Notes under the pieces: generated by a model
Told to the model about the DNA's origin: nothing
The model's database searches: none
Seen by the model: only the letters and a program-made list of their open reading frames with translations
In this document: one piece after another, positions 6,612-46,547 of the stretch
Numbering within the stretch: the first letter of the stretch is position 1
Layout: every line of letters starts with the position of its first letter
Made by a program: the position numbers and the translations under genes
NCBI GenBank assembly: GCA_027604505.1
Contig: JADIIX010000038.1
Span: 124,001 to 174,417 of the forward strand
From: Gonapodya sp. JEL0774
Taxonomy: Eukaryota
Length of the DNA stretch: 50,417 bases
Reading direction: 5' to 3'

Positions 6612-6847
6612 CATGGCGATGAATCACTCGCGACACATTGGATTCTCCTTCCGTCTTGCCGCTGTTAAGTGGCCAACAACTATAGATCAAATCCAATTTT
6701 CAAGCTTGCTCTGCAATTTCCTCATGCACTGTCAATATACGTTATGGCACTTGACTTTTAGAATATATCCGGATCATTGTTATCGTTAGCAAATTACATC
6801 CAGCGACCTGATGTTATGTCTTGGTATAATTCCTCGTTCATAGCCAA

Positions 6848-8637: not shown

Positions 8638-11600
8638 ATGACGCGCAGCCAACAAACAAAGCTGGACGCCACATTCTATGCACATGGCGTTTTTTGTGCC
8701 ACGCACCAACTTCTCATTCTTGTGGTTTGTGCGGTGATAATCCTTGCGCTCTCGAGTCCCGTTGCACGGCATATATACACATCTTCGATGAGAGCTTCTG
8801 TAAGCAGCACTGGTTACAACATTGCAAATGGAGACTCGAGGGGATCGCAGGCGAGTGCACAGGGCACTTCAGAGTCCGCGGAGTGGGCAGAAGCGTGGAA
8901 AGAGTGGAACAATGCTTTTAACCCAACAGACGATTTGAACTCCAGTCGAAAATCGTGAGTTTTAAGCGTGTAATGTACTTTCGGCTTTGTGGATTCGCTG
9001 TGTGGAGTTGCTTGCTTGATGGTGAGACGAGGGTGCAAGACATTGTCGGGGAGGACCGCCATTATCACTTGATACTGGGGACTCGCTTTTCAACGATGAC
9101 GCTTTCTTACTTGTGTAAACAAATTGAATCTGAAAGGAGGATGTTGTAAAGTCCGTGGAGAGGGCGATGATGCGATAAAGACCTTGGTGGACCTCAACCG
9201 CTGTCCTTCACGCTAAGACTGTGGAGAATGGCTCAGGCGAATATCTCACGTGCGCCCTCGCTTACGCCCTCTTTCACATTTTGCACGAACGCTTTGGTTC
9301 CTCCTGCCGTGGCTTTCGCATTTCCACAACCTCGCAGCTATCGGTTCCTTCATATTGCGCCCGTCGTTTTCTCCCTTCCTTCTTCCACCATGCACTCCTT
9401 GACCAACTATTCCCAACCTGATGTCACCCACCCGCACGTCTCCGCTCGCTTTCTTCGCCCTATACTCGACAGTCTCCATGCCTCAGGACTGCGGCAGCTC
9501 TGCTATAAACGCCGACCAACGCACATATCGGAGCTCCGTGATAAGGGCAGCTTAGACTGTCTGATGTGGGCTCAGAGCGTGAGGTGCATCGATAGAGGAT
9601 CAGGCTCAGGTTCAACTGGGCGCATGCCTGTGAGACCCAATGAGGAGGTGGAGCTTGTGAGGGCCGTGGAAGACATGAGGAGGTCCGTGGAAAAAGAAAT
9701 GGGACATGCTGGGTCGCCGCTACCCGCAGAAACCGATAAAACCGCACTCAAGACCGACGCTGTGCCAGTGAACAAGAACGATATGTCGTCGCTCGTGGAG
9801 TCAGACGATATCCATCTCTCCTCTTCCACCATAACACCGCAATCGCCGACCACGCGAATCGAGCCCAAACCGGAACCTTCGTTCCTCGTCTTCTTTTTCC
9901 TTGATGGTGACCCTCCCTCTATCATCCCTACTTTTCATAACATACTTGCCTCGTCCTTTCTCCTCCTTAACAATTCAACAACATCCGCATTGCACGTTGT
10001 CTCATCGCATCCACCAACTCTTCGTTCTGATTACCTCTCAGCACAGTTCCCATCAACTTCTCACCGAGTGGACTCGCCCCACGTTCTGCGTCCCTCGTAT
10101 TTCTTCTCTGCTGGCGGTACAAATTTCTCCGCCGAACACTTCCTCATCATCCTTGCTTACCTGCTTGTATTCTTACACATTTCCCTAAGTCTGGGAAAGG
10201 TGGATCTAGTTAAGAGCAAGTTTGGACTGGGCTTCGTTGCAGTATTGACGGTTGTATTGAGTTTGATCATGAGCGTGGGGCTATGCGGGATGCTGGGAGT
10301 AGAGTTTTCCATTGTGCCGTGGTAAGTCCACTTTCATAGGAATTCTTGTGACTTTGCTGGGGAGGTGGAAGGGAGTCGAATATAAACGAGCTTCCTCTGG
10401 GACCCGGGATGTTTAAGAGAAGGAATGTGAAGCAATCCCTGCCGATCGCAATCGCCCCAAAGCGTCGTTGACACATTCTTCATCTCTACTCATTTGACGA
10501 ATCGTTAAGGGAAGTTTTCCCGTTCCTCATCATCGCGGTCGGTGTAGAAAACATGTTCACAATCACTTCTGCCGTTGTGAATACGTCGATGGACCTCCCG
10601 GTTAAGGAAAGGGTTGGTAGAGGTGAGTTCATATATTTTGGAACTGGAGTCTCTTGGACTGAACCGTGTGGTTTCATACACTCAAAGGTCTCGGTAGTGT
10701 TGGCGTCAACATGTTCGCATCGATATGTGTCGAACTAGCAATTTTGCTTGTTGGCTCGGCGACAAATATTCCCGCATTTCAAGTAAGTTAAGGAGTGATT
10801 GTAATCCTCGAAAGACAGGGTTTCTGATGTGGTAGTGGGACGGATAAATGAGACTACCACGCTTTCATGAGGTATTCGGTGATTTCACCAACTCTCCTCG
10901 CACCGTAACATTTAGGAATTCTCTTTATTTGCCGCTGTGGCCATCCTTATGGACTATTTTCTCCAGCTCACATTCTTCACCACGGTTTTGTCTATCGATA
11001 TTCGACGATTAGAGGTAAGGCCGACCAAACAACAAAAATGAACTCGACAGGTGTGCGTGGTGCTCACGGTTGTTACCTTATTGCATACCAGCTCTCTGAT
11101 CTCCAGAATCGCCGGGTAGCTGCGATCATTCGGCAGCACTCTAGTGCTGATGTTGCCTCTCTTGGTGCTTCGGGGGCTCAAGCAGAGGCCGGTAGCGCGT
11201 CACCCGCGTCGAAAGCCGGTCTCTCAAAGGAGAAGCGCAAGGAAGGAAGAGGACTCCCTGTCACGTTAAATCACACCATTGTGAGTAAAAATAGGACTGC
11301 AGTCACATTCACTGATTCATACTAAAATGAGTCTCCCGTGGACTGTGCCCAGATGATTCTTCTCCTTGTGTTAATCGGTGTCATTGCGTACGAGATTCTT
11401 TTTGTCCAAAGTCGCATTTCCGCCCCTTCACCCATATCCATGCAGGGAGAACCCCTTGGGGCAACACCAACACCTACTTCAGACGACACGCCTCTCAGCC
11501 CAGACCCACGTGCAGTCCGATTGTATGAAAGGCTGTTTGAAGTACTTGGTTGGGAGCAGGAGCCATGGGGTCGCCACTATGAGTTTACGGAGGTGGCTGA

Positions 11601-13935: not shown

Positions 13936-14258
13936 ATAAACCCAGTAGATAATGTAAATTCATGTATCATATCGCAAAGAAAAGCAACAGCAAAGAAAGA
14001 CCTACAAGACCGTGCCAAACGAGTGTTACTATGTAACTACCAAGAGTAATCCACGATCTTTGTCAGAACTAATGGTTTCGATGATCTGTTTCAACAATTC
14101 AGTACATCAGCGTGGGGTGTGAAAACTAAGGACTGAAAGATTGTGGTCGGGAGGGAATCACAAACACGTCAAGATTGAAAAGTTGAAAGTGTCTCGGTTT
14201 GAACATGTATTCATGCAAAAATCTCCAATCGATAGTGCGACCCTTCTCATTTTGTCGG

Positions 14259-15088
14259 CTACTCTCCATGTTTGAGTACTCGGACGAACTCGCGATAGTT
14301 GAACATGCCTTGAGGGTCGACAGGGGATGCTTTGAACATAATGTCGACCTGGAATAGCGGGACAATGGCAGTGCCCCAAAGATGACTTCCTCTTTTGGAA
14401 GTCACAAACAAATTTTCGTAGGCGAAAACGCACCTCTTCGTCCGTGAACCTCTCTCCCATACTGGTCATGAATTCGCGAAGCTCATCGGCATTAACGAAT
14501 CCCAACTTCTTTTCGTCAAAACATTCAAAAGCTTGTAGGATTTCGTGCTCGGGATCTGTTCCGCTCATTTTCTCTCCCATAAGGGTCAAGAACATCGTAA
14601 AGTTAATGGCACCTGGTGCTTCATTAATCATATCGTCGATGAACTCGTCAGTTGGACTTTGTCCTGTCGGTCAAATTAGTTGTGTTATTTGAGGAGGGGG
14701 AACTGTTCATGGCCGCAAAACTTGCCGAGTGAAGCGAGCATATCCTTCAAATCTTCTTTGTCGAGGAATCCATCTTGATCGTGGTCGATGATGGAGAAAG
14801 CCTCTTTGAATTCCGCGATTTGCCGTTGGTCAAACATGGCGAACACATTTGAGTTTTGTCTGACCGCGCGCTTCTTCTTGGACTTCTCCCTGCGAGATGA
14901 CTGCCAAGAGGCATGCAAAAATGGTTGCGATTCAAATCAACCGTCGTGTTGGATCAGACTCCCTCAACTGCCCGCCGCCGTCCGTTCCATATCCCGAATA
15001 TTCTCGTCAACACACTAAACCGGAGCACGAGTCTCTCCAGTATTATCCATCCATCTCAGCCCCACGAAACGTCGATCAAACTGACCAT
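14259..15088 (-). CDS. Myosin II regulatory light chain (EF-hand); ATG on a micro-exon
   Basis: ATG|gtcagt at 15088, then [77 protein letters not shown] and [14 protein letters not shown]. Confidence 0.93.
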
Positions 15089-17944: not shown

Positions 17945-19543
17945 TTATTCGATGAACAACTCGCCACCAATCATTAACTCGTCATTCCCTTCAATTTTCG
18001 ATCCCTTTCTTTCGAGGTGATCCCGGTAAAACCGCTCCGCGAAGTCCGGTGCTGGTAGATCGCGCAAAGTGAGAAACGAGTCTATGTAGCGTACGAGCAG
18101 TCGATAGATGATCAAGAATTATGTGAGTTCTGAAGGGACAAGGATTAAAAAATGTTTCACCGACCAGTTTCTAGCCAAGCAGCTGGGGCATCTCTGAAGT
18201 CAAACACAGGTTTGATGGGGTTGAGGATCATGACGGCGATTTCTGGCTTGTACCATTCTGCGGGGGGCTCAGGCTTACTGAAGATATTCAGATTGAGGAC
18301 GGTTTCCGGGTCCGGGATAAATGTTTCTTCTTTTTTGTTTGATGGTAGGGAAGTGCACAAGGTACAGAAATGACAAAACAAAGTGAGCAAGTGATCCGCA
18401 AAAGTCCGACCTCCTCACTCGCACTGGTCGGTAGGCCACTACAACTTGGCACTTCAAAATTTTCCGCAGAGACGAATCTCTCGGTGATACGGTCAGTCAA
18501 TCTCCACATTCGAGTTCGTTGATTCGCAGTTAAGTGTTCCTTCTATCAAGAATTGACCGCTCGAATTACAACCGCAACGTACCAATTGTTTCTCGTGGAA
18601 CCCCACTCTCCACATCGAAATCAGAATCCGAGCTGAATCCAATGGATCGCAAAATTTCTGGCAGGGCATCGTCGCGGGCATGCTGGGAGAACCTTTGCCG
18701 GCCGCTATGAGGATTGGCCACTCCGATTCCGCCATCAGAGTTTTCAGTATTCCCTCGGACAACATCGCTTTCATCATCCAGAGACAATTGCGCAATGCCA
18801 ATGTCCTTCGGCTCAGTTATTCCCGCAGAGTCACCAACTCTGACGTTACGACGGCCGTTTCCCGAGCCAGGTCCCCGCTCTTCCGGTGTGTTAAATTTTT
18901 CGTCTGCTAGGACCAGTAGCCTCCTACCCGGCTTCACGCCAGTTTTGGGTGCGACAGAGCCACGAAGTGTTGTCCGCGGGGCGGGAAGACTGATGGGGGC
19001 TGGCGTCTGGGTCGTTATATCACGCAGGAGAGCACGCGGACCGGGAGTAGTAACAGGTGCCAAAGAGTTTGAGCTCGCTTTTAGATTACTACCAGAAGGG
19101 CCGGTCACAGTGGGTTTCGATAGGACGGAGGTCTGGGGTTTCGTTGCTGGTGTCAGAACACACAGCGGTGGCGGAAAGAGTGGAGGGAGAGGGAATCATG
19201 GCATGAATTCAACATTTCGAGCGATGAAGTATGCTCTGTTACTTGCCCATCATATCCAATAAATCAAGGACGTCCCAAACGCACCTGTTCCTTTTGCCGC
19301 TCCCCCCACCTTAGCCAATCCAGCACCACTAAAACCAGTTTTAAGCACAGCGGTGCTGTTGTACCCTGCTGATGGAGCTTTTTTCGTCATCATCTGCTTT
19401 CCCGGGGGACCTCTTGGCAACGGTGCTTCTCGCATATCCATGACCTTTCGCGCTGCGGGTTTGATGCCCCCGATCCCAGCTGGGGCATTCTCTTTGTCAA
19501 ATGTTTCACGTGTCCCTCTCAATGCCGCAAGGCGGGTCGCCAT
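17945..19543 (-). CDS. Disordered protein with KEN box and D-box-like motif; possible securin-like APC/C substrate
   Basis: N-terminal FDKENAP and RALLRDIT motifs. Basic N-terminal half, acidic Pro-rich C-terminal half. Splice-consistent exons end in ELFIE*. The gene is well supported; the identity is inferred. Confidence 0.45.
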
Positions 19544-19895
19544 TTTAAGATGGCGCCTGATGAATGCTTGAAATTGTTATGTTTGGGTTGTGGTCGACAG
19601 GTTCGGCAGCACGCACGCGCCAGGCAACGGGCCGGGCGCACATGCAGAACACCACACAACATCTGAAAAGATATCCACTTGCACTCGTCACAGCACTGCC
19701 GAACCAGCCTAGTGGTCGGCGAACATTCAGGTGCAAGGGACCCCACGAAAGGAATTTATTCAGTTCTCTCCATGAGAGGAGTTTGAAGACGCATACCAGA
19801 CATTCAATTGCGAATCGTCTATAAGCGAAATGCGAGTTACATTCAAATGATCATTATGCAAACTACCAATGTATTAGAGTATTTTTCAACTGCGG

Positions 19896-22800
19896 TCAGA
19901 ATCGTTCACCAAAGTGATGAAGGTAACCATAGCCCTGCTGCTGTCTGTTCAGTTGTGAGCATGCCAGATCGACATTGTCCATCATTACAGCTGTTGAAGA
20001 TCGTTCGAAGTCAGTGTGGGGTGACAGAGCAGTCATGTTACAAGAACTCACCCGGACCACATGTGAAGACTCCAATGTCCTTCGCGGGCACCTCAGCCGA
20101 TTCACCGAGAATGGGGGCAAGGTCCTCCGGTGCGTGAATCTCCCGAATTTTTCGGAATAGAGATTCGAAATTTGGCCGCCCAAAGTGTGTTTGTGACCTT
20201 AAGCCTGTGAACAGTGACTGCCCATTAATCCTCGCGAACGAGCGTTCAGTGATCTTCATCGGGGGAATCGCAAAGGTTAACCAGACAAAACTTTCTCAAT
20301 GCACATCGTGAGCTCACATAAAGCATGGTTGTCCGTAAGTCGTACTTTTCCGTGATGGCTGTAATGAAAACATGTGCATCCAGCACGTGCAACTCATCCT
20401 GTTCCTCGAGGTCCTTGATTAGGTCCACCATCCACTCGAATTGTTTTTGACTCCTCGCAACCCAGATGAAATACGCTTTCCGTATCCTCTGCTGCGCGAA
20501 GATCCCAGGAGCCTTGTTGGCATTGAAAACCAATTCCTTCATTATGGAGGCGAAGGGGGTGACACCGATGCCTGCATTTCATACCATTGTCAAGACCATG
20601 CAAAGTACCACTATGATGTCCGATGCCCTTAACGTACCTCCTCCAACGAATATGGCGACGGGATACCGTGCGTAGTCTCCGTGACCGCCACCGAATGGAC
20701 CATCGATGATTGCACTCCCGGGCACAGTTGCACCAAGAACATCTCTAGCTCGCGTTGTCCATGGCCCAACTGTGCGAATGTGGACCGATAAGTAAGGGTC
20801 ATTGGGTGCCGAGCTGATCGTGAAAGGGTGGAACTCTTTGGTGGAAATCTCAGGGAGTGCAATCCTCAGCCATTGGCCCGCTTTGTAATCGAAATTCGAA
20901 GGCTTTCTCATCTTGACGAGTGTCACTTCAGAAGGGAGCAAAGCGGCCTCTATAATGGGCACTTTGAAGGCCCGACGTTTTGCAGTAAAGACAGAATCCA
21001 AACGGTAGACGCTTAGTTGAATAAAAGATTGTTGAACGAAAGGCTCGCTTATGAAAACGCATGGTATCCACGAGCCTCACATCGTAGGGACTAGCATGAA
21101 GTACCAATAGAACGGGGGCTGAACAAGCTGTGCTGCACCGTGAACGATCATTGCGAGGTACCATATGGGATGCAGCCTGTGGAAAAACCAGAACACGGTG
21201 AAGACATTCCGTCGCACGTACTATGAGAAAGAGAATCAAAGTTAGCAAAAGCCCAAGGAGTTACGTCGCAGAAGCTCACTTCATGTGCATATGTGTAAAT
21301 CAAAACCATTAAAACTGTGAGTACAAGGCCCGAAAAGCCTGTCACAGTTTGCCAGCAGTAGTAGAAGAAAGACAGCAGTTCATCTGAGTAATGGTAAACA
21401 TCCCGGAAGTAGCACAACATGTCATCCGAAGGCTGGGTCGAGAAATTGTAGAAACTAGAAAAGGAACTGATCAGGGATGCAACACCATACATGATATTCC
21501 TATAGTATACTCACTTGAAGAAGTGGCCAACAATGTGAATGATCGACATTAGGAAGCCAGTCCATGCTACATTAAACGCGTTAGCATTTAAATATCGACG
21601 AAAATGCGGTGCAACTAACCAGCTATGATGTGGAATTCAAGGTGTTCATCGAATGGAATGAATTCAGCGAGCCAAGTCCCTCTGAGCCAAGCGATTGTGT
21701 TCCGGCACCTGTTCAAGCAGAATCAGTTAACCTGATGCGAAACTCGCAGGGCGGTACCTCACATTGACAAAAGAACCCAAGCATAGCACCACATTTGTGC
21801 GGAAGCGCCACCACGCGTGACTTCGGTAGAGAAAATAGACCGTGATTGGAGGCAAATTGATGAGATGAGGTGAGCATAAGATCTTACTTGCAACTCCGTA
21901 GCCAGTGATCTGCCGTAAACCTCCATGCTCCTTGTTGTGATAGTACACGTAAAAGCGCTCAAAGAAGATGCCAAGTGTTGATGCGAAAAAGAAAATTAAG
22001 AAGATGATTTCCCTGCGCTTGTTGGTGATGTATGCCTTCCAAAACCCGAATCGACTTGATTTCCGAGGAGCCTGAGGAGCACTTGTCGTACTTCTAGTCA
22101 AAACCTCAGTTCCGATTCGTTTCGATAGTGGCGTCGGAGAGCGTAAACGAGATGTGCTGGAAGAACCACGGGAGATATTCTCCACCAGGTTGCGGTTTCG
22201 GTTCACAGCTGAAGTGAGAGCACGGTTCACTGCACTGTTTCCTGCTGCTCCCCCTGCCGTGGTGAGTCCTCTGGAAACCGTGGGGGCCAAGGTTGACTGA
22301 GGAGCAGATTGCGCGTCTGAAGGAGCATCCAAGACACCTGCAATAGTGATGGCTTGAATAACATTCTCCCCAAAAGTGTTCATCACGTGACGGAAATCCT
22401 CGAAGTTCATCATGTCGACCGGTCCACCTCGTCGCCTTTCCACCTCCTTCCACCAAGTGTCGACAACCGCGGTTGTTGCATTGTTCAAGGTACTTTTGTC
22501 AAGCTCTTTCGCAGCACTACCTTCACTCAAAAGGGATGTCAGCATAGTGAGAAGTTCTTCTTTCGAGAGACTTCCATTGCCGTCGAGATCTGTAAATGAA
22601 CAGTGCAAGGGCACATTATTGAGTCACTTTCACTCTTCTTGGTCTCGACCGAAACACGATTAACTCACCATGCAAGTCAAACAGTAAACGCGTTTTGGCA
22701 TCCACACTGCCATTGTTGAAAATAACCATCATGTCCAGCAATTCTCGGAAGCTTACATATCCACTAGAGTCCTTGTCCACCCAGTTGAAAATTTGAGTTG

Positions 22801-25800
22801 CAAAGAGCGAGTTCCTATCGACACGGAAAGCAGCGGCAAATTCATCCCGTGACAGCTCTGCCTGGGCAAGTCCTCCAGGTCCCCCCGATGGACCGGAGCT
22901 GTCACGCTTGAACCAGCCGGTGCCGCTTCTGGTTCCCGTGCCATTACCACCACCCCGGCTCTGAGGTGCAATGATATTGGCTGCAAGGTGAATACGGCAA
23001 GGCTGAGTTTGACTCAAACTCCTGAATTTGTGAAAACGGGGACATACCGATTTCTCTGAAGAACTGTTCGATCTCGACGGTTCTTTGCGCACGGCTCTTA
23101 ACGATAGACATGAGTTCCCTGTGTTTCTTCGTCAACAACTGTGACATTCGAGGAAGCCGAGCCTTGTATTGGTAGTCTGTGAGGCGCGCAACGAATTCAT
23201 CCCGAGTGGTGGAATCAGTGAACCTGAGCCAGATCTAATTTCCGAGCCGCATTAATTACCACTCCGCGAAACCACAGGTACCTCACTAAGACGCTTCACT
23301 CACATCATACTCTTTGGGGACCTGAAGGACGATCTCGGGAAGCTGAACCGCTTCCCTGCTTCCGAACATCATCCACTTCCTCGACGTCTGTCCTCGGAAG
23401 TCCACGTTGCCTTCGGGCGTGGCCTCTGAAAGTTCGCCAATCAGAATATCTCCAAGTCGATCGTAAGCGACTTCCCGGATGACCTTTGCCGTGTCTCTGG
23501 GATTGACCAGCTGGAGCTTATTATCTGATAACAACACAGTAACCGCTGTTCCGTCACTTGGATCCGCCGAGTCTGGCTTTGGGGGAGCTCCTCCATCGTG
23601 AGTGGCTGGTAAATCCTTGCCTGCGCACTCGGTGGCTGGAAACACGTCAGCCAAGTCCTTCCCCGCGAATTCCTGTGCCTCTCTGATGAGCGGTGACCGA
23701 GCACCCTTGCGAGTGCTTAGCCGATCCTTCTTCTTTGCAGCAGCGCGAGCTCGTCGGATGAGTCTTGATCTCCACCAACGAGCCAACGGCACTGTCAAAC
23801 CCGCAAAGATCATCAGAAAAATGGAGACAAATATGACACCCGTGATTTGGTATCCAGAAAGCTTGAGATAATCAAACTGCTCAGGAGGTGTGCACGTCAA
23901 CTCCGCGGTATCCGTTGAATTTATCTGCTTGGGCTGGTGGCAGTAGAAAGTAGGAGGCGGTTCGTGCCATACATCATCCTGGATAGCCCAGTCGGGAATG
24001 CCGGTGTTGCGAATGATGATGGACCGCATGGAGTTTTCGGGGCTGCGAATGAAGTCAACCTCGGCGGGAGTAAAGTAGCCGGAGGTGGGGTTAGCGAACC
24101 AGAATCGGTCCGCATCACGGATACGGCTGAACTGGTCCACCAAAATTCTGCAAATCAGATTATAAAAGGTGAGTGTAGGTGTGTTTGGATCGACCGCGAA
24201 ACAGCAACCGCTCCGCCGACCCTCGGATCCGTACTCACGCTCCAAACAACTCTCCCATCTCCCCCTGCGTCGTTTCTAGAAGTCCTCCCACCCACGTATC
24301 AATATCATCCAAATCTCCATGATACAGATCTTCCATTTTCTTTGCAATAGGCTTGACGCCGTTCACGGGAATGTCCCAGTCGCCAGTGATGTCCTGGAAG
24401 GATGTCTTGCGAGTGAGATTGAAGAAACGGCGGGCGGTGTTGTAGTCGGGGATTCCTGCAAAAAGGGAAAAGACGTCTTTTGGATTCACCCACAGTGATC
24501 TCTTTTGGCTGTTCAACCCACCTTCCTCTCGCCCCCGTTGGATGTTGATCGCCATCAAGTCCCTCCTCGACATTTCCAAGGGTCCAAACACAAATCCTCT
24601 CAAATCTTCCGTAATAATGTTATCCTCTTTCTCGGTGACCTGAGCGGTCAATCCAAGCAAAAACTCCGCCAAGTCGGTTTGAGAGCCTTCGGGGAACGCA
24701 CCGCGGAATCCTCCATTGTTGCCAGCACCGGTGGCGTTGACCGCAAACTGGCCGGAAGTGTCGGCACCAAGGTATTCTGGAGAAGATGGGAAATGTGGTT
24801 TCAGGAATGCGACGTATCGTCCTGGGACAATACAAGAACCCGATCCTTCATCCTCCGACTCACCATTCGGATTCCAGTAACTGTTACAAGTCCTGAACAA
24901 CTTGTTGTTCAGAAACTGGCAGCTCCCATTCCTCCCCACAGCCGGATTCTGGGGATCGGCAGTGCCCACCGTCCGTCTCCACACTGCCGGTGGAACCAAA
25001 GTGTGACCGTATCGCATCGCCGCTGCTTGGAAAATGACGGAAATTTGGGGGTGTCGGCTTGGATCGTAACCTCTATAAGGAGGTAGAGGTCGCCCGGCGA
25101 AGACGGGGAACCATTCTTCGGTGACGACCTGTTGGGTAGCGAAGAGCGCATCGTTAAATGCCAACTCAAATCCTACCCAGCTTCTTCAAGCGTCCAACAC
25201 CACCAAAGCCGCCTCTGTACCACATCGAGCTCACCTTCTGATGCAACGCAATCACCCACCGCCTGGCTTCGTTGAATAACCTCTCATCGTCCCAATTCGG
25301 ATGCAAGGCCTGCAATCTCGCCGCTTGGAAGTTGTGCTCACGGAACCAAAGTACACCCATGGAGAGAAGCATGGGATTTTCACTGCCGTGGTTTGGTGGT
25401 TACGGGTGATCAGACATTACCTAAAAAGACACCTTCACTCACTTTCCTCTGGGATTACCCAATTTATGAATTCTGAAAGGACTCTTCAATTTGTGGTCTC
25501 TGGGCGGTGCCGGATTGAACATGGGCAGTCCGACGTCGTTGTATTGGGGGAACTTCCCCGACGCGTCCGTGGCGAGAGTTCCGCCCACGTGTGTGCGGAG
25601 AGCGTCGGACCTGAAATAGGGGTATATATACAGTAAGCATTGAGACGACTGCAAAAGTACGCGACGGGGCGGATTCCCCGAGGAAACCCCGCGCATCACC
25701 GTGACAATCTGGGGAGACCCTTCCTTCCACTCACCAGGCTCGCGCAGTCCCATACACCAGCCCGCCATCAATCCACGGCGTAATTTCGTTGATCTGAACC

Positions 25801-27080
25801 CTCGGACCGTTGATGGCGTGTCCTGTGGTCGCCTCGTACCGGTTCCGGAGCAAAGGAATGATTGCATCACCTGTGGACTTGGGGTCATAGAGGGGGTCGC
25901 CCTTGGGAATCGGGATGTTGAAGTACTCGACGGGGCAGTGGGGCCGTTGTGCGTCGAGGATTTCCTCAACGACTTGTTGACCTGAAGGGGAACGGGGTGG
26001 GGGGTGTCGTCGGTGGTGAGAGGAGACAAAAGCAGTTTTCAGGGACTTATACGCCGTCTCCAGGTTCCATGAGTACGCTTGCTCTCAGTGGCAGTCATGA
26101 AGTGCTTCAGAGGTTTGTGAGTGTTCCGCTCCAGAACATAACGGCGCCGTTCCACCACCGGCCTATTTCATTTACCATCCTTCGATAGTTTCTCTCATTC
26201 CAGAAAATTCAAAACTCCCTTTCAACCCACCGAAGAATGTCATGAACGCTGTCTTTCCCTTGGTACTCCCCATCCCCGTTGGCCCAGACATGAGCTCAAC
26301 ACTAAGCGTTCTGGGATTAGGCCTGTGCTCCCCCGCAGGCTCTTCGATACCATCGGTGTATTGAGGTGGGGGCCAGATGAGCATAGGCGAGTCGATTGCA
26401 CCCTGGTTTGCGGGAGCAGAGGAGAAAGGTGAGTGAGGATGCGTGAGGCAGACGAGAAACTTCCCCAAAGCAAAAACAGAGCTTGCGAAGTGTAGAGGCA
26501 GTTGCAGTATGGAGGGAGAGGGGGATCGGTAGGTGGAACTGCGAACACGTCACCGCCACCAGGGACCAGGTACGCTCCAGCATAACGACCACCGAGCGCG
26601 AATCCCGTGTCACTTGCGAAATTCTAGCGTTGTCACTTAATTGTGACCCCAGTCACGCCCGAAAAAAACATCCCAAGTTCCGCCCAAGGGAATGTTCGGG
26701 TTCAGTGAGTTCTGAGCCGACGACAGACTCACCAACGTCGGCACCGCCAAATTGTTGTAAAATCCATCCCACGGAGGAAATTCACGCCAGGGTTCGTCGT
26801 CGAGATGGTTGTCGGTTGGTGCCTGGGGAAATTTGACTGAAAACGTGTTTGCAGTTCCGGAGGTGAAGGGCAGAGGGGATGAAGTGGATCCAGCCCCCGT
26901 AGTCGAGTTTGCGGCGTTTGCAGCCGGGGATGTTGAGGAAGAGTTTGTTAAAGAAGAGGGAGGAGGAGTCGATGGAATTGGGAAGATTGAGGGGGTTGAC
27001 GTCGGTAGAGCGCCGGTTGTGGAGGGGAAGGGAGGCTGGACCAGACTGACGAGGGGGCCACGCTTAGCCGGATGCGCCAT
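19896..27080 (-). CDS. DUOX: Dual oxidase: peroxidase-homology domain, TM, PH-like domain, EF-hands, 6-TM ferric reductase, FAD- and NADPH-binding domains; multi-exon (possible extra first exon at 27566-27505)
   Basis: Peroxidase domain: [91 protein letters not shown] and [16 protein letters not shown]-like QVPKEYDL. EF-hands [12 protein letters not shown] and [12 protein letters not shown]. Heme His pairs EFH...IIHIVGH and FFHRLH...IVHG. FAD motif [16 protein letters not shown] motifs [12 protein letters not shown] and FTCGP. C-terminus HHFGERF*. Confidence 0.97.
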
Positions 27081-28118
27081 GTAAGGAAAATTGAGTTTGA
27101 TGTGCGGGGCGGGGGCAGGAGTTGGATTGAGTTGGGTTGAATTGTGTGCGTGGGGCTCTCGAACTCAATGACGGTGTTTCGTGCAAGGAAAGGGGTGCCG
27201 AGAGTGCGGGTGGAGTAATGAAGGGAATGAGTTGACAACAAAAGGGAGAAACAAGAAATAGGAGCAAACGAATTTGCTTGAGAACAGAATGAAAATGGGG
27301 GCTGGAGAATTACGAGAAAATATATTGTCCGAGTGTGGGGAAAGCCTCTGTGGCAAAGTCCGGTGGGTTGCCGCACAGGCAGGGCACAGGCAGGCATTGT
27401 GCCCCCCCCCCTCCACCCGAGCCGTGCCCTGCAAGGACACCCGACGCACTCTGACTTGCATGGAATCCACATGTAGGAAACAAAGCACGTTAGACGGCAC
27501 GTACTACTCCTGCTCGTTCAAGTAAATGAAAACAGCAACCGCTGTAAACACCAGAAGCTCCGTCATTGCGGGAAGGACGGAGTGGCTGTGTGATGAGGGC
27601 CTACTTTTTGCATCAATATTCGTAATCTGTAAGATTTGAATTCTATGTATGTATGAGACAACCCCCTCCTTTGCTAATATTTTGTCACGATTGACTTGGT
27701 TTCGGATTCAAGTTGTTTTGTCACGAGTAATAACCACTCGTTTGCTACTGTCTTACAAGGGAGGTTCGTGCAGTGGATTGAACCTGTTCTGAAAGATTTT
27801 GCTTGGAATTCAAGGCAAAGAGGAGGGCAGTGGTGCCGAAGAGGCGGGGTTTGTTTATGGAAAGAAAGTGCTGAGCTTGCTGACCGTGAATCGCCGAGGG
27901 CTGGCTGGCGGTGCGCGGAATGACCTGAAAACCTTCGTACACTCTCCAGGCACCCCCCCCCGTTACGAACACGTGAATCGACTCTCCCGCTCCTTTTTCT
28001 CTCTGTGCATCAAACTTCCATTTCCACTGGTGCACAAGAAGATTCTCTCGCTCTCGTCAATTCGGAGCCGTGACACCATACGGACCGACTGGAATTTCAT
28101 CCACACTCATACAGGATC
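27081..28118. promoter_or_regulatory. Putative bidirectional promoter region between divergent DUOX and DUOXA
   Basis: Divergent start codons at 27080 (or 27566) on the minus strand and 28119 on the plus strand. No other convincing gene lies between them. Function is inferred from the arrangement only. Confidence 0.55.
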
Positions 28119-31056
28119 ATGTCTGTCTACGACTACATCCCCGCGGACTTCTCGTCATTTTCGCTCTTCAGACTCTCCCCATGGCCGTCTATTTGGCCCT
28201 CCCACATAACTCCATGGCGTGCGTTCCAAGCTCTATTTCCGCCCCGCGTTGCGCCAGTCCCCACTATTTGTTCCCTCGTCGTCTTCTTACCATCTCTCTC
28301 TCTCCACTCCTTACAGAATTCTATTACGAAGGTGTCACTATTGGCATCATTTACGGTTTCGTCGTGGTTCTGGCTCTACTGTTTCTCCCGACATTTAACT
28401 TGTCGAATCCGGTACGTGAAGTTCCCCTATTACTCGATGTACGGAGGGTCCACTTTGTGGGGCGGGGGTTGGACGTGGTCGTTGGACCGGTGCCCCACCA
28501 GGAAAGACCTGCAGGTTCTCAGTGCACGCTGACAACAGAAACAGGCTACAACGATGCCGCACACAGCGGGTACTCCTACCAGCCTCTATGCGCACAGATT
28601 GGGAAACAACTACTTGTCCAGCCCTCGGGTGGCTTGCTAGTCCTTGGATGCGCTGTCGCGAGAGTTGGCACGCGTGAATGTAGGGCGAAACAATGGTCCA
28701 GCTGCTCGATTCGCCACCCAATATTGTGCAGAAATCACATGCGTGATTTCTCGAGGCGTGAAATCTTCTTACTCTTCTTCACCACCAACTAACCAAACTC
28801 CTCCCCGTCCTCGGACTTCTCCCATCGTCAACCTCGAACCCCACCACCCCCCCAACCCCACCCCACCACAGCGCACCCGCGCGTCGGCCCTACTCTTCTT
28901 CTCCTCCCTATACGTCTCGTACGCCATTCTCCCTCTCGGTATATTCGGATACTCGTGGTGCACAGGGACCGTGGAATCGCGCATGCCGGTCGCGTTTGGA
29001 CCCGAGGGCATCGAGGTCAGGGCGAGAGTGGGACTCCATATTGGACTGCTGGGGCTGAATGTTACCATGGAAGGTGGGTTTGGGGTCGGTCGATGGGAAT
29101 GGCGGTGTTGTGGGGGGTGTTTTCGCTTGCCTTGACCCAGAGGATGGGAGTGGAAGCAGGGACTCGGACTTCTGGAAACGTAGGGCGAGAGTGGTTTGCA
29201 CTGCATTTACATTGGATGACCATCCAGTGACATATGGCGATCAACCACGCTCAGGCTTGATCTTGGCTGGGGTGGGAGCTCTCCATACGGTGCCGGTCCC
29301 GAACGTTGAGAGCTTCATGATACCGCACGGCAAGCAATGGACACCGTGGCAAGGATGAAAACTGTCTCTCTAGATTCTTTTCCCTCCTCATTTTCTCCAA
29401 CTCTGCCTCCCATCCACACCGCATCTCGCAATGCCCTTCACACTCCATCATCTCTGCACACGTAGGCCTCCCTCTGACCCAACATAACCGCACCATTTAC
29501 TACAATGAGCATTACCCATGGTCGAGCCCATGGGCACAAGGGAGAACGGGATTTGGGAAGTGAGTGTGAGACATGGGTGCTTGGGGCTTGGGATGGGCAA
29601 AATGTGAGGCATCTGAGAATACGATCCTGTAAGCACAGGACCAGTGGCAATGGAAGAGAAAGAGTGGTTGGCTAGGTCGCCACATGACAGTTGTACTGGA
29701 AACGATTGTTTGGTGCGAGTTGCAAACACACTCCTTCTTATATCAGCCTCCTTTCCCCCCTTCTCACTTCCCTCTACTCAAAAGATACGCCAACCACCTT
29801 GCCCGTGTCGCCCGGGAGCGTCAAGAGCATGGTGTGCCGACTCCCGTACAGTGGGTCGCCGAATACTTTTGGCTCGACGGAGAGAGGATTAGGTGGGGGA
29901 GAAATTTCAGGACGGGAGCACATTATGCATTTTTGATCTTGAGGTGAGTTGAAATGTAGAGAGAATGAAATTGATTTGCTGGGGGTGTTGGGCGAACCGA
30001 AGTCGAGAGAGCGGGAACGATGGGGCACGAATAGCGAATGTCGAAAGAGTACTTCAATCGCCATTACTCAATTTTCCTCTCGGATGCTCCACTTCAATTG
30101 CACCTGGCACCTCTCCTCTGCACCAGAACTTGCGCGGTCGGCGTCGCCATCATCCTAGCGATCTTCATGGTCGGGGCTCACACCATCGGTTCCTGGCTCA
30201 CCTTTGTCCTGGGTGCCCTTATTATCTCCGCCGCCGTCACATTTGCTGCCTACGTCGGGCCCATCTGGAATCTGAACCCCTTGGCCATACCGTTTCGGGA
30301 TGGCAACCTCACCTGCTCGTTTGGCCCTAGTTTCTGGGGTGTGGTGGTTGCGGGGGCGCTATGTATGATTGGGAGCGTAGCAACAAGTGGGACCGTAGTG
30401 GGATGGTGGGTTTTGGGAGCAATAGGGGGACCAAATACTGGTGTTTTGGAGACTGCCAAGACATCTGACCTCGTTCGTTCCTTTCTGGTCGTTTTCGCAC
30501 CCTGTTCTATGACTGTAACAGGTGGTCTTCCTTCTACGGCGATAACTATGAAGAGATTGAGCCTCACGCGACATTCCCACTGGAATCTGAGAAGGAAAAG
30601 AAATCATTCATCCCGAAGTTGAATCTACCACGCTTTGGCAAGAAGTCAGAAGAGAAGTCCTCGGAAGAGTTCTCTGGTGCACACGATATACCGCTCAAGT
30701 CTGGTGGATGGCTTAGCGGTGGGTCAGGCAATGGGGGATACCTACCCCTCGACGGAGGTGCTGCGATTTCGCGATATAGCGGCGAGGTGGGCCGATATCC
30801 GACCGTCTCCGGTCCGCCACCCCCTCTCGGAAACCCACCTCCACCACCGGGGTACACCGCGTCCCCCTTACGGTCGGAGGTGTCGTTTGGCGGGACTGTG
30901 ACTGACCCCTTCGCAGATCCAGCCCCTAAACCTGCAGCATTGATAGCACCGCCCAGGTTGAGCAGCACTGGGGCGGGGGTGGGGGGAGGGGGGACAGATG
31001 TGGTGGTGCCAACGATCACCTTTACGAAAATGCCGACAAACGAACCATCACACTAG
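28119..31056 (+). CDS. DUOXA: Dual oxidase maturation factor (DUOXA/NIP family); about 7 exons, with a Pro-rich C-terminal extension
   Basis: Spliced translation includes VRARVGLHIGLLGLNVTMEG/LPLTQHNRTIYYNEHYPWSSPWAQGRTGFGK/Y, then HGVPTPVQWVAEYFWLDGERIRWGRNFRTGAHYAFLIL and IPFRDGNLTCSFGPSFWGVVVAGALC. These are the characteristic DUOXA blocks, with several TM segments. Confidence 0.92.
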
Positions 31057-31258
31057 GCTCGGGGAGAGATTGTTTGGGAATATCACGTGCCATTTTATAG
31101 TTTTCGTTGCCATCCACCTTCTTTAGCTTTGGGACGTTGCTTGGTGGAAAAATTCACAATATGTACGAATGGATGATGTATCGCATGGACCGTGCGTTCT
31201 GGTTGTAGGAGGGTTGTCCCGTCTCCAAGCATCCTCCACATTTTCTGCTCGAAATTCA

Positions 31259-33483
31259 ATGGACGAAAACAACACGTCTCTGATGAGCTCCCTAGGCGCG
31301 CTTAAGCGCCCTCAGCTACAAAAACTAGCCAAGGAGAATGGCATTCCCGCAAATGGCAAGGTGAGTGTGACCGTTGGCGCTTCAAGCGGCGGCATGAAAG
31401 CACTTTAGGGGAGAGCTCTCCCGGCGGAAAGACTGTAAACGCACAAAAAGTTGTTTGTTGTGGCTAATCGGATAGAGCTTGGGCGAATCGGATCGCTCAA
31501 TGCAGACGATGCCTTGGGTGGTTTCCGGCCCGTGTTCCAAGTCACTCTTCTTCGATGCCGCCCGTCCACGATTCCACTTTAATGCTCATAATATTTCATT
31601 TAAAACATCAGAACATTGACATCATCCGCGCTCTTGAGTCGCTGAAGGTCTCCTTCATCGCCGCTGAGAAGCCCCTGGATAGCGGGCGGGGCGCAAGTAC
31701 GCTCCCGCTTGGGGACACCAAATCCCATCCATTGACAAAGACAGCTAGCGGAGTTACAAATGCGGGAGGGAAAGCTTCGGTGGGGAGGACTCCACTCGGG
31801 ATATTGTCGGTAAGCACTCACATGCCCCTTGGAACTCACACCCACCGTAGAAAGGATTGCATTCATGCCCCTGACTTCGTCACGGAAATTTGTAAAGTCT
31901 AATGCCCAGCAGCCATCTCCATCGTCCATCCCAAGGCTCTCCAGCTTCAGGGTCGCCTCTTCCAACCAGAAGGCACCTGAAACATTTTCTCAGCCAACAT
32001 CAGAAACCACCCTTCCTCCACCTTCACAAACCTTCTTCTCAAGCCCGGAAATTGATGAGGTTGATAGTGCAGATGAGGATGAAGACTCTCAATCATCCGA
32101 CGGTGAAGTTGAAGACACCATGGATTTTGGAAAAGCTCGGAAGAAGGGATTACTCCCACTGAGGCTGACTATGGAAATGGAAATCAGTCCTAACAGAAAG
32201 AAGACTTCTAGTTGTAAGTGCAGACGTTCATCAATTCTCACTCCCGTTGCTAGGGTTTCCCACCTTGTCCTCCAATTACCGTCCCAACAAATATTAACCC
32301 CGCCAACATGCTATCATCAATAATCCGGCAGGTGGCACACCCCGCGTCATTCCTCCGACAGAAGTACCCCCAGAGATATCTGCCGCTGTTCATGCGGAGT
32401 TTGAGGCGAGAGTCCGCCAACAAAGTTCGTTGAGTTAAGATTCTGATATTGCTAGAATTTTGTGTCAAATTTTCTCTTTTGTAGAACGATCTTCAATTCC
32501 TCGACGGTCCCCGATGAAAGCGTTAACCAAACTTGTGCGGCGGGAGAATCCCGGTGTTGTTGATGCCACAACCCCGTCGGGAAAGTTCATGATGGCGCAC
32601 GAAAAGCAGTTCAAAAAGTGAGTAAAAATTAAATTCCAGTTCATCCGAGGTTGGCATGATTGTATCGAGTTCTGATCCTCAAACGTAAATACCTGCCCAC
32701 AGGATGGAGGGCATCGATCGCCACTACCTTGCCCAACGTGCTCGTTCTGCATCTAAACCACCGTTGTCTGTGGTAGAGCCTTCTCATCTTGGTGCACCTC
32801 CAACAGTTAAGGAACTGGCAGGAGCTACTTCCGCGCTGCCTTGTGCTACCGGGCAAAGACATGCCACTCTCCGTAAGCCTACGATTCCAGTGGCACGTAA
32901 GTCTGTTCTACCTCCCGTTATCAAGAAGGCAGGCGCACCAGTGGTCACCAAGACTCCTGTTGCAGCAGTGGGCACTAGCAACTACTCAAACCTAAAGAAA
33001 GCAGTGGAGCACGTACCGCGTGAGCACACACACAACTCGGTGCAAGTTGAAGAAATTACAGAAAACAAGAAACGGAAAGCAGAAGAGGGGAATGGAGGAA
33101 CTTCAAACACAGTTGCTCGCTTGACGAGGGGTTCCACTTTGGTGGCTGTCCGACCAGAGGGCAAGAGGACAAAAACCGAGGGACACAGCACTAAAAGCGT
33201 GGATAGTTCTTTGATCCAACAGCAAGTGAGTACCGAACACGTCCTTTCACTTGAAGTCGCCGCGGCGTCACCTCGGTTCTCACCGTAGCGAGCGACTCTG
33301 ATCGCCCCACCTGCGAAGAAAGCAATCAAGCCCCGTGCGGTTCAAGATGCGCACACATCACCTGCGAAGACACACCTCGCCGAACCTGCTCGACAGAGAA
33401 AATTCGACATCAATGCTTCCCTGAAAAAGCCCCTGAACTACGTGCCACACAAAGGTGCACTACCCAAATTCGGCCTTAAATAA
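31259..33483 (+). CDS. NUSAP1: NuSAP-like nucleolar/spindle-associated protein; multi-exon
   Basis: N-terminal SAP-like LKRPQLQKLAKENGIPANGK/NIDIIRAL, central KFMMAHEKQFKK/MEGID, and C-terminal RKFDINASLKKPLNYVPHKG. These match the three conserved NUSAP blocks. Confidence 0.7.
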
Positions 33484-36913: not shown

Positions 36914-39900
36914 ATGGAGAAACGGAGCAAGACAACTGAGTATGTCATCTGCATCGATTTGTTGACGGAAGTCTTGATGCCATCACAGTATCCATCACGC
37001 TGTACCAGTATCAATGCTTACATGAACATCCATCATTTCGAGGAGCTAATGTACACTTTTCAAAGTCACGAGAATGAAGACGGATTTGATATTGACACTG
37101 TGAGTGTGTCGATCTAGCCTGTGTGACCCTGGAATCCGTGGATTGACGAAAGAGTCGTTCAGTTCCGTCGAGTCTTCCGCGAGATCCTTGGGGGAGCGCT
37201 TTCATACGACCAAATGACGCAACTTTTCATGAAGATTGACGCGAATTCGGATGGCTGTCTTTCTTGGGACGAATTCTCTACATACATGATGATGGGTGCG
37301 ATTGGAAGCGCGGACGAAAGCACCGATGTATTTGATGAGCGCATTCGACGACTACTAGGATGTCCACATCGTGATATGATCAGGAGGGTTGACTTTGTTG
37401 CACGTGAGCGCAAGTACATGACGGTGGCTCGTGATGGGACGGTTTGTTTTTGGAGCCCCACACTCCGGCTGCAGAGGACAGTCGCCACAAAAGAGCTTTA
37501 CAATGAATTTGAGGCGGGGTCGGGGACCAAAAATGGAACCAACTATTGGGTCATGGATGCCGTGTTCCTTCACGACCACGGGAAGCTGGTGGTGATCACG
37601 GACCACCGGCAGCTATGCATATACGACGTTTTGGCCATTAAGCCGAGAGCCATCGCTGTAATAAGTCCACTGGAAGATAACCCTCTGTGTGTTTCATATC
37701 ATCGTGAGTTCATCAGTGTCGAAGCATGTTGATTCATGACATGATTAGGAGACACCCGCAAAACGCCCTGTCTCAATTCAGCACGGTACGACGACGAAAG
37801 AGATCTTATGCTCTTTGGTGACGATGGAGGCTTCGTGAATGTTTTATCATTCACTCGAAAATTTTTCATCGAATCCTCAGCCGATGGCCGACCAAATGTG
37901 ATCGACCCTGCAAAGCTCGGTCGCAAGGACAGCCTCGAAGTCAACAACATATCATTGTCACGGCGCAAGGTTCATAGTGAATGGGTCCAGAAGGTTTGCT
38001 TTCTGGCCGAAATGAATGCTTTTATCTCGTGCGCACCGGAGAACTCGAAGTCACTCGTCATTGGGGACATGGATAGGAAAGCCGAACGCTACATACATGC
38101 TCCCAAGGGTATTAATTGCTTTGAGTACTGCAGAAGACCAAGCTTTCTTGTGACTGGTGGAAGGGACAAGGTTATGTGAGCGATTGCGTTACTGTAATTA
38201 ACCAACTTCCGCAAACCAAATAACTATTTCAAAGCCGTCTTTGGAATCCATATGTTCTTTCGAAACCTGCCGGAACTCTGTACGGACACAATTCTTCGGT
38301 GACGCAGGTCCTTGTTAATCAAGACGAATCGCACATCATATCTCTTTCTGAAGACAAGATCATCAAAGTCTGGAACGCTCGCAACATGACTTGCCTCCAG
38401 ACACTCACGGATAAGGTACCGCATCGTCCAGAAAATGTCATCTCGACTTTGTACTTCGATTCCATAAATCGCAGATTGCTTTGTGGCAGTAACAAGTTGG
38501 AGACCTTCTCGGTAAGCCGTCTTAAAATCTTCAGTTATGTACTTGACGTTTAGCTTGCTGCGTGGCGTGTGGGTGCGTTTGCGGGGCCTCAAGCTTTTCA
38601 GGAGCAATCGGAACCAAATAACAAGAACCCACGACGCAAGCGTTGTTGCTGCACTCTTCAATGAAAACTTCCATCAAGTTGTTAGTGGCAGTCAAAACGG
38701 CACAGTGACCTTGTGGAATATGGGTACGGGCGAGAAGATATTTCAGTTTCATAATCTCCACGATGGAAATGAAATCACAGCAATGTGCTTTGACAAGTCT
38801 GGTCGAAGGCTTATCACGGGAAGCCGGGATGGCAAAATTAAGGTGCGATTTCAAATTGGGCAATGCCAACTCGTCCTTCTCACAGATCCACGGTTTTCAG
38901 ATGTGGAACTTCAACAACGGTCAACTTCTCAAAGTAATGATCAAGGATGACCCAGTCGAAGTAACTGACCTCATGTACATTGAAATAGGCTCCAGCAAGT
39001 ACATTGTTGCAGTCGGATGGGACGAAATGGTTTCAGTCTTTATGGATGACCCAGGCGAGGACGAAGCGCGCCCATGCAGAGTACTTGCAGGTGAGGGTAT
39101 TCATAAAGGGTGAGTCTGCATCTCAACAGTAAGTCGACAGTATCTAATACAGGCAACTCACGCGCAGACACACCGACGATATTACGTCTATTGCCTTCTC
39201 GGAACCTAACATTCTGGCGACGAGTGGCGTTGATGGGTCGATTGTCCTGTGGAATTTGGAATCCGGTCACTGTAAAGGCCAAATGCAAGAACCGTACTGT
39301 CATCTTCGTAACCCGGAAGAAAAGGCGATAGAGAAGGTGTGGACTTTCGATTTGGCAATGTAGCGACGTTCCTCATGACCTCGCTACAATTATAAGCTGT
39401 TGTTCCTCAACAATTTAAGTCCAAGTGCTCTGAATACACGGTCAACGCGGATTCCGCTGGTGTCAACTCATGCGGATGGTATTTTGCGAGTTTGGGATGT
39501 GCACGAAGCGCGAATGGTCTTTGAGGTGTGGACTTCTCATTTTCTACTGCCGTGCTGAGTGGCTGATGCTCATATCGCAGCTGGATTGCGAAATGTCGGA
39601 TGGAGAGGGCCTCACCGCCATGGCGGCAAACTCAGACTCTTCAATTCTCTTGCTGGCTGGCTCAAAAGGCCATGTTCAAATGTGGGATGTTTCGAAACTA
39701 CGCATTGGAGAAGGAATATCTGTGGCTGATATGGCGAGAACGCTATCACTGACGAAGACATGGCGAGCACACATAGACACGATCAACAGGTGTGGAACCT
39801 TGCTGTACCTTGTCGATTACTGCTTCATACATAATCTTGCTTCATCGCGTCGAAAAGTATCAATTACGTGGGAATGTACAGCGTGATCATAACCGCATCG

Positions 39901-46454: not shown

Positions 46455-46547
46455 TGAAAGTTTGAAATTTCTGCACCACTGCTTAGTTGCAGGAGGTGCA
46501 TATATGTGCATCAACCCTTCCCCTCAATAAATAAATTAGTTCATGCA

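What the first reader, a model, noticed from the sequence alone, without database searches (positions are those of the whole stretch)
19896..31056. Complete head-to-head DUOX-DUOXA system in an apparently fungal genome
Seen: a full-length dual oxidase with every domain intact, transcribed divergently from a DUOXA gene about 0.55-1 kb away. Both are spliced like their neighbours. Established: DUOX and its obligate maturation factor DUOXA are known mainly from animals, vertebrate DUOX/DUOXA pairs are head-to-head, and the textbook fungal NADPH oxidases (NoxA/B/C) lack a peroxidase domain. Inference: this is a Ca2+-activated extracellular H2O2-generating complex, either retained from the opisthokont ancestor or acquired long ago. 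The linkage is either far older than vertebrates or arose convergently.
Basis: partly seen in the sequence, partly recalled or inferred. Interest (0 to 1): 0.93.

Follow-up and report, generated by a model that had tools for sequence, protein, structure and literature searches.

The report
Animal-type peroxide enzyme pair in fungi
An aquatic, swimming-spore fungus (Gonapodya) carries intact back-to-back genes for dual oxidase and its helper protein, a pair that makes hydrogen peroxide in animals and is predicted to do so here, and it likely inherited the pair from the common ancestor of animals and fungi.

Summary
DUOX (minus strand, 19896-27566, 1776 aa, 21 GT-AG introns) and DUOXA (plus strand, 28119-31056, 487 aa) are intact and divergent, 552 bp apart (1038 bp from the alternative start). 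The exons match GenBank proteins of Gonapodya sp. (Monoblepharomycota). G. prolifera has orthologues (80% and 62% identical) under consecutive accessions, which argues against contamination. Chytridiales also have full DUOX. Fungal DUOXs form one clade outside animals (100/100). Nesting inside animals is rejected (AU p=7e-9); the species tree is not (p=0.49). Two DUOXA introns sit at the same positions as in animal-clade loci. All NOX catalytic residues and two canonical EF-hand loops are present. The peroxidase domain keeps the proximal His but lacks the distal His, as in invertebrate DUOX. Nine searches found no paper describing a fungal DUOX or DUOXA. DUOXA also occurs in red algae and a DUOX-like protein in a green alga. 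Expression, binding and H2O2 output are untested.

The parts
19896..27566 (-). DUOX gene, 22 exons, 1776 aa (alternative start at ATG 27080)
   Evidence: 80% identical to G. prolifera KXS19340.1, and matches KAJ3340743.1 exon by exon where the models agree
27505..27566 (-). Candidate first exon encoding a hydrophobic leader (possible signal peptide); absent from the GenBank model; unconfirmed
   Evidence: only 1 of 7 enumerated first-exon models is hydrophobic (max 10-residue hydropathy 2.94; 2.25-3.2 in the animal and choanoflagellate entries that have a leader)
26793..27045 (-). Ser/Thr/Pro-rich N-terminal stretch (54% S/T/P) with two N-glycosylation sequons; likely an extracellular stalk
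23925..26792 (-). Peroxidase homology domain (aa ~106-690): proximal His412 kept, distal His replaced by Glu (188/189), Cys198 matches human C118
23781..23837 (-). TM0 helix (aa 720-738)
   Evidence: hydropathy scan
22555..22777 (-). Two canonical 12-residue EF-hand loops (D1028-E1039, D1064-E1075)
21008..22017 (-). NOX transmembrane domain: heme ligands H1343, H1357, H1436, H1449; oxygen-site R1300 and H1361; Thr-Gly at 1402-1403; loop-C Cys1378
   Evidence: human numbering from PMC7794343 passages
19896..21007 (-). FAD- and NADPH-binding dehydrogenase domain
   Evidence: Pfam FAD_binding_8 E 8.6e-18, NAD_binding_6 E 4.1e-14
27567..28118 (.). 552-bp divergent intergenic region; likely a shared bidirectional promoter (inferred)
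   Evidence: no expression data
28119..31056 (+). DUOXA gene, 7 exons, 487 aa: five hydrophobic segments, luminal sequons N128 and N140, Pro/Gly-rich tail

Best explanation
These are intact, divergently oriented DUOX and DUOXA genes of the fungus Gonapodya, predicted to encode a calcium-activated NADPH oxidase and its maturation partner that release hydrogen peroxide outside the cell, and likely inherited as a linked pair from the common ancestor of animals and fungi. Shown: gene structures, domains, catalytic residues, host, adjacency in a second species, a fungal DUOX clade outside animals, and shared DUOXA intron positions. Inferred by homology to human DUOX1-DUOXA1: (1) both genes are co-transcribed from the 552-bp spacer; (2) DUOXA assembles with DUOX in the ER and escorts it to the plasma membrane; (3) Ca2+ binding to the two EF-hands activates electron flow from NADPH to FAD, to the inner heme (H1343/H1436), to the outer heme (H1357/H1449), to O2 at R1300/H1361; (4) the peroxidase-like domain sits outside, stapled to loop C by C198-C1378, and may bind heme but is probably a weak peroxidase at best. 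The most likely use is Ca2+-triggered surface chemistry such as wall or cyst hardening, wound response or defence; this last step is speculation.
For: Intact ORFs and splice sites recovered independently. Best solved-structure hits of the G. prolifera orthologues are mouse/human DUOX1 (E 1e-276) and DUOXA1 (E 4.5e-17); the Atlas structure match is DuoxA, TM 0.73. R1300, H1343, H1357, H1361 and C1378 all lie 213 residues from human R1087, H1130, H1144, H1148 and C1165; H1436 and H1449 lie 211 from H1225 and H1238. C198, C1378 and R1300 are invariant among the rows that cover them in a 47-row alignment (42, 46 and 46 rows). G. prolifera KXS19340.1/KXS19341.1 are consecutive, each with longest contig 808,289 bp; the window's are KAJ3340743.1/KAJ3340744.1. 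Conservation is concentrated in functional domains: peroxidase 514/585, TM 199/220, dehydrogenase 274/305, against N-terminal stretch 38/73. Full DUOX also occurs in Chytridiales JEL0842 and two Entophlyctis. 12-row IQ-TREE: fungi 100/100, animals 100/100; Holozoa not rejected (p-AU 0.49), fungi within animals rejected (6.6e-9), Gonapodya with animals apart from chytrids rejected (2e-6). DUOXA introns 132.1 and 216.2 recur in 19 and 23 of 37 genomic loci, most of which fall in the clade holding Sycon (FastTree 0.986). Unnamed locus L014 is sister to Gonapodya (99/98) and shares introns with both groups.
Against: No expression, binding or activity data. The signal peptide is uncertain: four database models of fungal DUOX lack one, and the G. 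prolifera N-terminus resembles window residues upstream of my proposed acceptor, which favours the 27080 start. Orientation in G. prolifera was not seen, only adjacency. No Chytridiales DUOXA was identified among the 20 DUOXA hits looked up by name, of 150 listed and 251 found. The order of fungi, choanoflagellates and animals is unresolved (49/7), fungi+animals is not rejected (p 0.31), the root is one long algal branch, and the groups were named after I had seen earlier trees. DUOX itself shares only 1 of 20 intron positions with three intron-poor animal-clade loci, which chance can give. The 37 loci include near-duplicates and L014 itself, and most are unnamed. The named fungal hits were only Gonapodya and Chytridiales, so vertical descent needs many losses. 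DUOXA in red algae and a DUOX-like protein in Spirogloea show a patchy range in which gene transfer cannot be excluded.
Confidence: 0.72

Rival explanations
1. The same enzyme pair, but acquired as a linked, intron-bearing DNA segment by ancient eukaryote-to-eukaryote transfer (from a stem holozoan or another protist) into the ancestor of Monoblepharomycota and Chytridiomycota.
For: Patchy fungal range among named hits; DUOXA in Porphyridium and Compsopogon and DUOX-like proteins in Spirogloea; fungi+animals not rejected, p-AU 0.31; a tightly linked pair can move as one unit.
Against: Fungi form their own deep clade that follows fungal taxonomy, and nesting in crown animals is rejected. GC3 is 0.58/0.62 against 0.42-0.57 for six neighbouring stop-to-stop frames, which are not curated genes. 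The DUOXA tree does not join Gonapodya to red algae.
Confidence: 0.17
2. Both genes were inherited vertically, but the head-to-head arrangement arose again in Gonapodya through selection for co-regulation in a compact genome.
For: Linkage is shown in fungi only for Gonapodya; G. prolifera has a second DUOXA on another scaffold (KXS16191.1); Duox B/DuoxMF B are often unlinked in animals (PMC11721785).
Against: The same orientation is published for sponges, Salpingoeca and bilaterians; 7 of 46 metagenome loci show DUOX upstream on the opposite strand and none in another arrangement.
Confidence: 0.08
3. The fungal DUOX has no signal peptide, so its peroxidase domain is not exported as in animals, and the protein works on an internal membrane or is mis-targeted.
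For: Four database models of fungal DUOX begin without a hydrophobic leader.
Against: A candidate leader exon exists; the C198-C1378 pair, sequons and S/T/P stalk fit a luminal or extracellular position; the GenBank model has other errors (an extra exon and fusion to the next gene).
Confidence: 0.07
4. Contaminating animal or protist DNA, or a chimeric contig.
For: The pair is textbook animal.
Against: An adjacent orthologous pair in a second Gonapodya assembly; fungal DUOX clade; no step in GC across the window.
Confidence: 0.01

Closest known systems
Human/mouse DUOX1-DUOXA1 complex (PDB 7d3e/7d3f, 6wxr; PMC7794343, passages seen)
   Same: Domain order, four heme His, oxygen-site Arg/His, peroxidase-domain-to-loop-C Cys pair, two EF-hands, DUOXA fold with both luminal sequons, head-to-head genes (PMC2871058, passages).
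   Different: The proximal heme His is kept in the peroxidase domain (lost in mammals); S/T/P-rich N-terminal stretch; uncertain signal peptide; long Pro/Gly-rich DUOXA tail; fungal host.
Salpingoeca rosetta Duox EGD74734 / DuoxMF EGD74736 and sponge pairs (PMC11721785; section 6 and supplement searches seen, figure not seen)
   Same: Non-bilaterian head-to-head Duox/DuoxMF; same distal Glu-Glu and proximal His pattern.
   Different: That study sampled four holozoan non-animals and no fungus; the Gonapodya pair lies on the other side of the deepest opisthokont split.
Chytridiales DUOX (KAJ3411720.1, KAJ3213002.1, KAJ3392583.1; automatic GenBank names)
   Same: Sister clade, full architecture, about 40% identical overall.
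   Different: First EF-hand loop degenerate; a DUOXA partner was not identified.
Fungal NoxA/NoxB/NoxC (PMC9421330, passages and supplement search seen)
   Same: NOX catalytic core; NoxC is also EF-hand regulated.
   Different: No peroxidase domain, TM0 or DUOXA. That survey included another G. prolifera protein (KXS19446, 'Unknown') but not KXS19340.

Membership tests
DUOX (dual oxidase) | N-terminal animal heme peroxidase homology domain | tested here: met
   An_peroxidase on three window ORFs; 430 bits on the orthologue
DUOX (dual oxidase) | Extra TM0 helix between the peroxidase domain and the EF-hands | tested here: met
   hydropathy peak at aa 720-738
DUOX (dual oxidase) | Two EF-hands | tested here: met
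   two canonical loops; orthologue passes the EF-hand_6, EF-hand_7 and EF-hand_1 cut-offs
DUOX (dual oxidase) | NOX transmembrane domain with four heme His, a fifth His and Thr-Gly | tested here: met
   H1343, H1357, H1361, T1402-G1403, H1436, H1449; signature from PMC3591440 passage. Pfam Ferric_reduct is 25.4 bits, under its cut-off of 28
DUOX (dual oxidase) | FAD- and NADPH-binding domains | tested here: met
DUOX (dual oxidase) | Cleavable signal peptide and extracellular peroxidase domain | tested here: inconclusive
   one candidate exon; database models lack a leader; the conserved Cys pair supports an outside position
DUOX (dual oxidase) | Ca2+-dependent H2O2 production | not testable with these tools
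   needs an assay
DUOXA (PF10204) | DuoxA profile above the curated cut-off | tested here: met
DUOXA (PF10204) | Five TM segments with a glycosylated luminal loop | tested here: met
   five hydrophobic peaks; N128 and N140 align with sequons of human DUOXA1; Atlas TM 0.73
DUOXA (PF10204) | Binds DUOX and is required for its maturation | not tested
   inferred from homology only
Active peroxidase-cyclooxygenase heme peroxidase | Distal catalytic His | tested here: not met
   Glu-Glu at 188-189 where PDB 8s6c has Asp-His-Asp; no His in either register
Active peroxidase-cyclooxygenase heme peroxidase | Proximal heme-ligand His | tested here: met
   H412 aligns with the His of lactoperoxidase; His in 47 of 47 rows
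Head-to-head Duox/DuoxMF locus | Divergent adjacent genes | tested here: met
   adjacency, but not orientation, in G. prolifera
Head-to-head Duox/DuoxMF locus | Co-expression from a shared promoter | not tested
   no reads were available to lay on the locus

The most novel reading that the evidence does not exclude
The head-to-head DUOX-DUOXA unit predates the animal-fungus split and has stayed linked since, making it one of the oldest functionally coupled gene pairs in eukaryotes. Early fungi keep a working Ca2+-triggered H2O2 machine that the familiar fungi lost. With DUOXA in red algae and DUOX-like proteins in a green alga, the system may reach back towards the eukaryote ancestor.
Probability: 0.6. 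Interest if true: 0.72.

Novelty: new member of a known kind. Interest (0 to 1): 0.57.

Why it matters
[quoted passage not shown] An intact linked pair in fungi adds a fourth NADPH oxidase type to the kingdom and likely moves the origin of DUOX, DUOXA and their shared-promoter layout back to the opisthokont ancestor. It also gives a culturable, non-animal system in which to ask what DUOX did before epithelia, thyroids and cuticles existed, and whether the heme-ligand-retaining peroxidase domain is catalytic.

Tried and rejected
No genome assembly is held for this window, so flanking synteny and paralogues could not be searched. No RNA holder was listed; this says nothing on expression. A FastTree grouping of Gonapodya DUOXA among red algae (0.79-0.90) vanished under IQ-TREE, where red algae grouped together and Gonapodya had no supported sister; I rejected it. 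The careful searches did not finish, so those are quick trees with SH-aLRT only. DUOX intron comparison was uninformative: 1 exact match, and two near-misses one codon off (370 vs 369, 1678 vs 1677) that I did not count. DUOXA intron 163.2 lies 5 nt from the common 165.1 and was not counted. Nine of 46 loci (L001-L005, L007, L009, L011, L015) were left out of the intron count as apparently unspliced. Long introns showed no consistent excess folding (z 1.5 to -2.2 against mononucleotide shuffles). GenBank's fused models (DUOX plus the next gene; DUOXA plus NUSAP) are rejected as annotation joins: my ORFs stop at 19896 and 31056, and the G. prolifera orthologues are unfused. PMC8327215 and PMC9524095 (passages) added nothing on fungi. 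Look-ups of this scan by sequence and by place returned nothing.
Full report
Observation. Six-frame reading gave two spliced genes. DUOX runs on the minus strand from 27566 (or 27080) to 19896: 22 exons, 21 GT-AG introns, 1776 aa, one terminal stop. DUOXA runs on the plus strand from 28119 to 31056: 7 exons, 487 aa. A spliced aligner using a profile without the window or G. prolifera rows recovered 20 of 20 DUOX introns in its range and 4 of 4 DUOXA introns in aa 39-298. Pfam on 18 window ORFs found An_peroxidase, EF-hand (under cut-off), FAD_binding_8, NAD_binding_6 and DuoxA (two ORFs above cut-off), but not Ferric_reduct, whose helices are split over short exons. The start codons are 552 or 1038 bp apart.

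Host. A DUOXA exon is 100% identical to a Gonapodya sp. JEL0774 protein. The GenBank 'Dual oxidase 1' KAJ3340743.1 and its neighbour KAJ3340744.1 map onto the window exon by exon. Both GenBank models are fused to the next gene, and the DUOXA model lacks its first 163 residues. Gonapodya is a monoblepharid fungus. G. prolifera has orthologues at 80% and 62% identity under consecutive accessions KXS19340.1 and KXS19341.1, each with a longest contig of 808,289 bp. So the pair is adjacent in a second assembly, though its orientation there was not seen. G. prolifera has a second DUOXA on another scaffold. Contamination is therefore very unlikely.

Range. Full DUOX architectures occur in Chytridiales JEL0842 and two Entophlyctis and in Salpingoeca rosetta and S. 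infusionum. A version without Pfam EF-hands occurs in the green alga Spirogloea. Both DUOX searches listed only the best 120 hits (of 409 and of 178), mostly animals, so the fungal range is a minimum. An exhaustive search with the DUOXA orthologue found 251 proteins and listed 150.

Origin. In a 47-row FastTree, a 25-row quick IQ-TREE under a mixture model and a 12-row careful tree, the fungal DUOXs form one clade and animals another, both at full support. AU tests reject fungi inside animals (p 6.6e-9) and Gonapodya with animals apart from chytrids (2e-6). They do not reject Holozoa (0.49) or fungi+animals (0.31). The root is a single long algal branch, and I named the groups after seeing earlier trees. 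The DUOXA tree is unresolved at depth. Introns add independent evidence. DUOXA positions 132 phase 1 and 216 phase 2 recur exactly in 19 and 23 of 37 genomic metagenome loci. These counts include near-duplicate loci and L014; most of the 17 loci placed in a tree fall in the clade with Sycon, and L012 and L013 have DUOX partners inside animals. With six common positions among about 780 sites, two matches among four introns has a chance near 4e-4, or about 0.03 with tenfold site bias (my arithmetic). L014, an unnamed contig of 31% GC, encodes a DUOXA sister to Gonapodya (99/98). It shares introns 65.0, 132.1 and 216.2 with the window and 85.1 (called at 86.1 in most loci), 132.1, 165.1 and 216.2 with the animal-clade loci. 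It is probably another fungus, which is inference. DUOX shares only 1 of 20 positions with three intron-poor loci, which is uninformative. Seven of 46 loci show DUOX upstream on the opposite strand, none in another arrangement; the three placed in a DUOX tree are animal. Vertical descent from an intron-bearing opisthokont ancestor is the simplest reading; an ancient DNA-level transfer remains possible.

Mechanism. The orthologues' best solved relatives are mammalian DUOX1 and DUOXA1. Human numbering from PMC7794343 (passages) maps with constant offsets: R1300, H1343, H1357, H1361 and C1378 to R1087, H1130, H1144, H1148 and C1165; H1436 and H1449 to H1225 and H1238. C198 aligns with C118. Both EF loops are canonical. 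The peroxidase domain keeps the proximal His but has Glu-Glu at the distal site, as do all 42 rows covering it. A review passage states that C. elegans Duox binds heme with low peroxidase activity while the mammalian domain does not (PMC8228183). I infer ER assembly with DUOXA, delivery to the surface, and Ca2+-gated electron flow from NADPH through FAD and two hemes to O2, giving extracellular H2O2. The weakest step is export of the peroxidase domain: four fungal database models lack a leader, one candidate leader exon exists, and similarity to the G. prolifera N-terminus argues for the downstream start. The biological use is unknown; I favour Ca2+-triggered wall or cyst hardening, wound response or defence, by analogy with animal roles tabulated in PMC3591440 (passage).

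What is known. [quoted passage not shown] Its four non-animals are holozoans, and the Duox and DuoxMF entries I found among them are S. rosetta EGD74734 and EGD74736 (I did not see every occurrence for the other three species). PMC9421330 (passages; supplement search) lists NOXA/B/C and an unclassified chytrid NOX for fungi, and includes a different G. prolifera protein but not KXS19340. A Hydra preprint (10.1101/2022.10.04.510867; passages and section 6) calls DUOX metazoan-only in its text but marks some sequence as found only in G. prolifera in a figure I could not see. Nine searches of the held library listed no paper describing a fungal DUOX or DUOXA; most subscription papers are not searched.

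Verdict. This is a real, intact member of the DUOX-DUOXA system in an unexpected kingdom. It is automatically labelled in GenBank but apparently undescribed. The antiquity of the linkage was partly known; the fungal case likely extends it across the deepest opisthokont split. New member of a known kind; interest 0.57.

Noticed in passing
P0146 (KAA8490679.1), P0142: DUOXA homologues in the red algae Porphyridium purpureum and Compsopogon; no red algal DUOX appeared among the listed DUOX hits.
   Followed up: partly
P0052, P0124: Two Spirogloea muscicola (green alga) proteins have peroxidase plus NOX domains but no Pfam EF-hands, like unnamed P0054, P0093 and P0131; these may be Ca2+-independent DUOX-like enzymes.
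   Followed up: partly
L014:430-2002: Unnamed AT-rich contig with a DUOXA sister to Gonapodya (99/98) carrying both Gonapodya-type and animal-type intron positions; probably another fungal lineage.
   Followed up: partly
P0132 (KXS16191.1): Second G. prolifera DUOXA on a different scaffold; its partner is unknown.
   Followed up: no
window 17948-19567 (-) and 31208-33480 (+): The genes GenBank fused to DUOX and DUOXA each carry a KEN motif near their start; the right-hand one hits Pfam NUSAP (45.8 bits), so both flanking genes may be mitotic regulators.
   Followed up: partly
window 25611-30521, introns over 100 nt: All 8 introns tested have a G-skewed 5' half and a C-skewed, pyrimidine-richer 3' half, without consistent excess folding.
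   Followed up: partly
listings: Precomputed Pfam PF26659 is on most animal DUOX entries but on none of the fungal or choanoflagellate ones; I did not look up what the family is.
   Followed up: no
window 5150-6619, 9171-10322, 14158-14667, 37127-39883, 43387-45092, 46458-46862: Neighbour ORFs hit HMG-CoA reductase, a sterol-sensing domain, EF-hands, EF-hand plus WD40, DUF3591 and ALG11_N.
   Followed up: no
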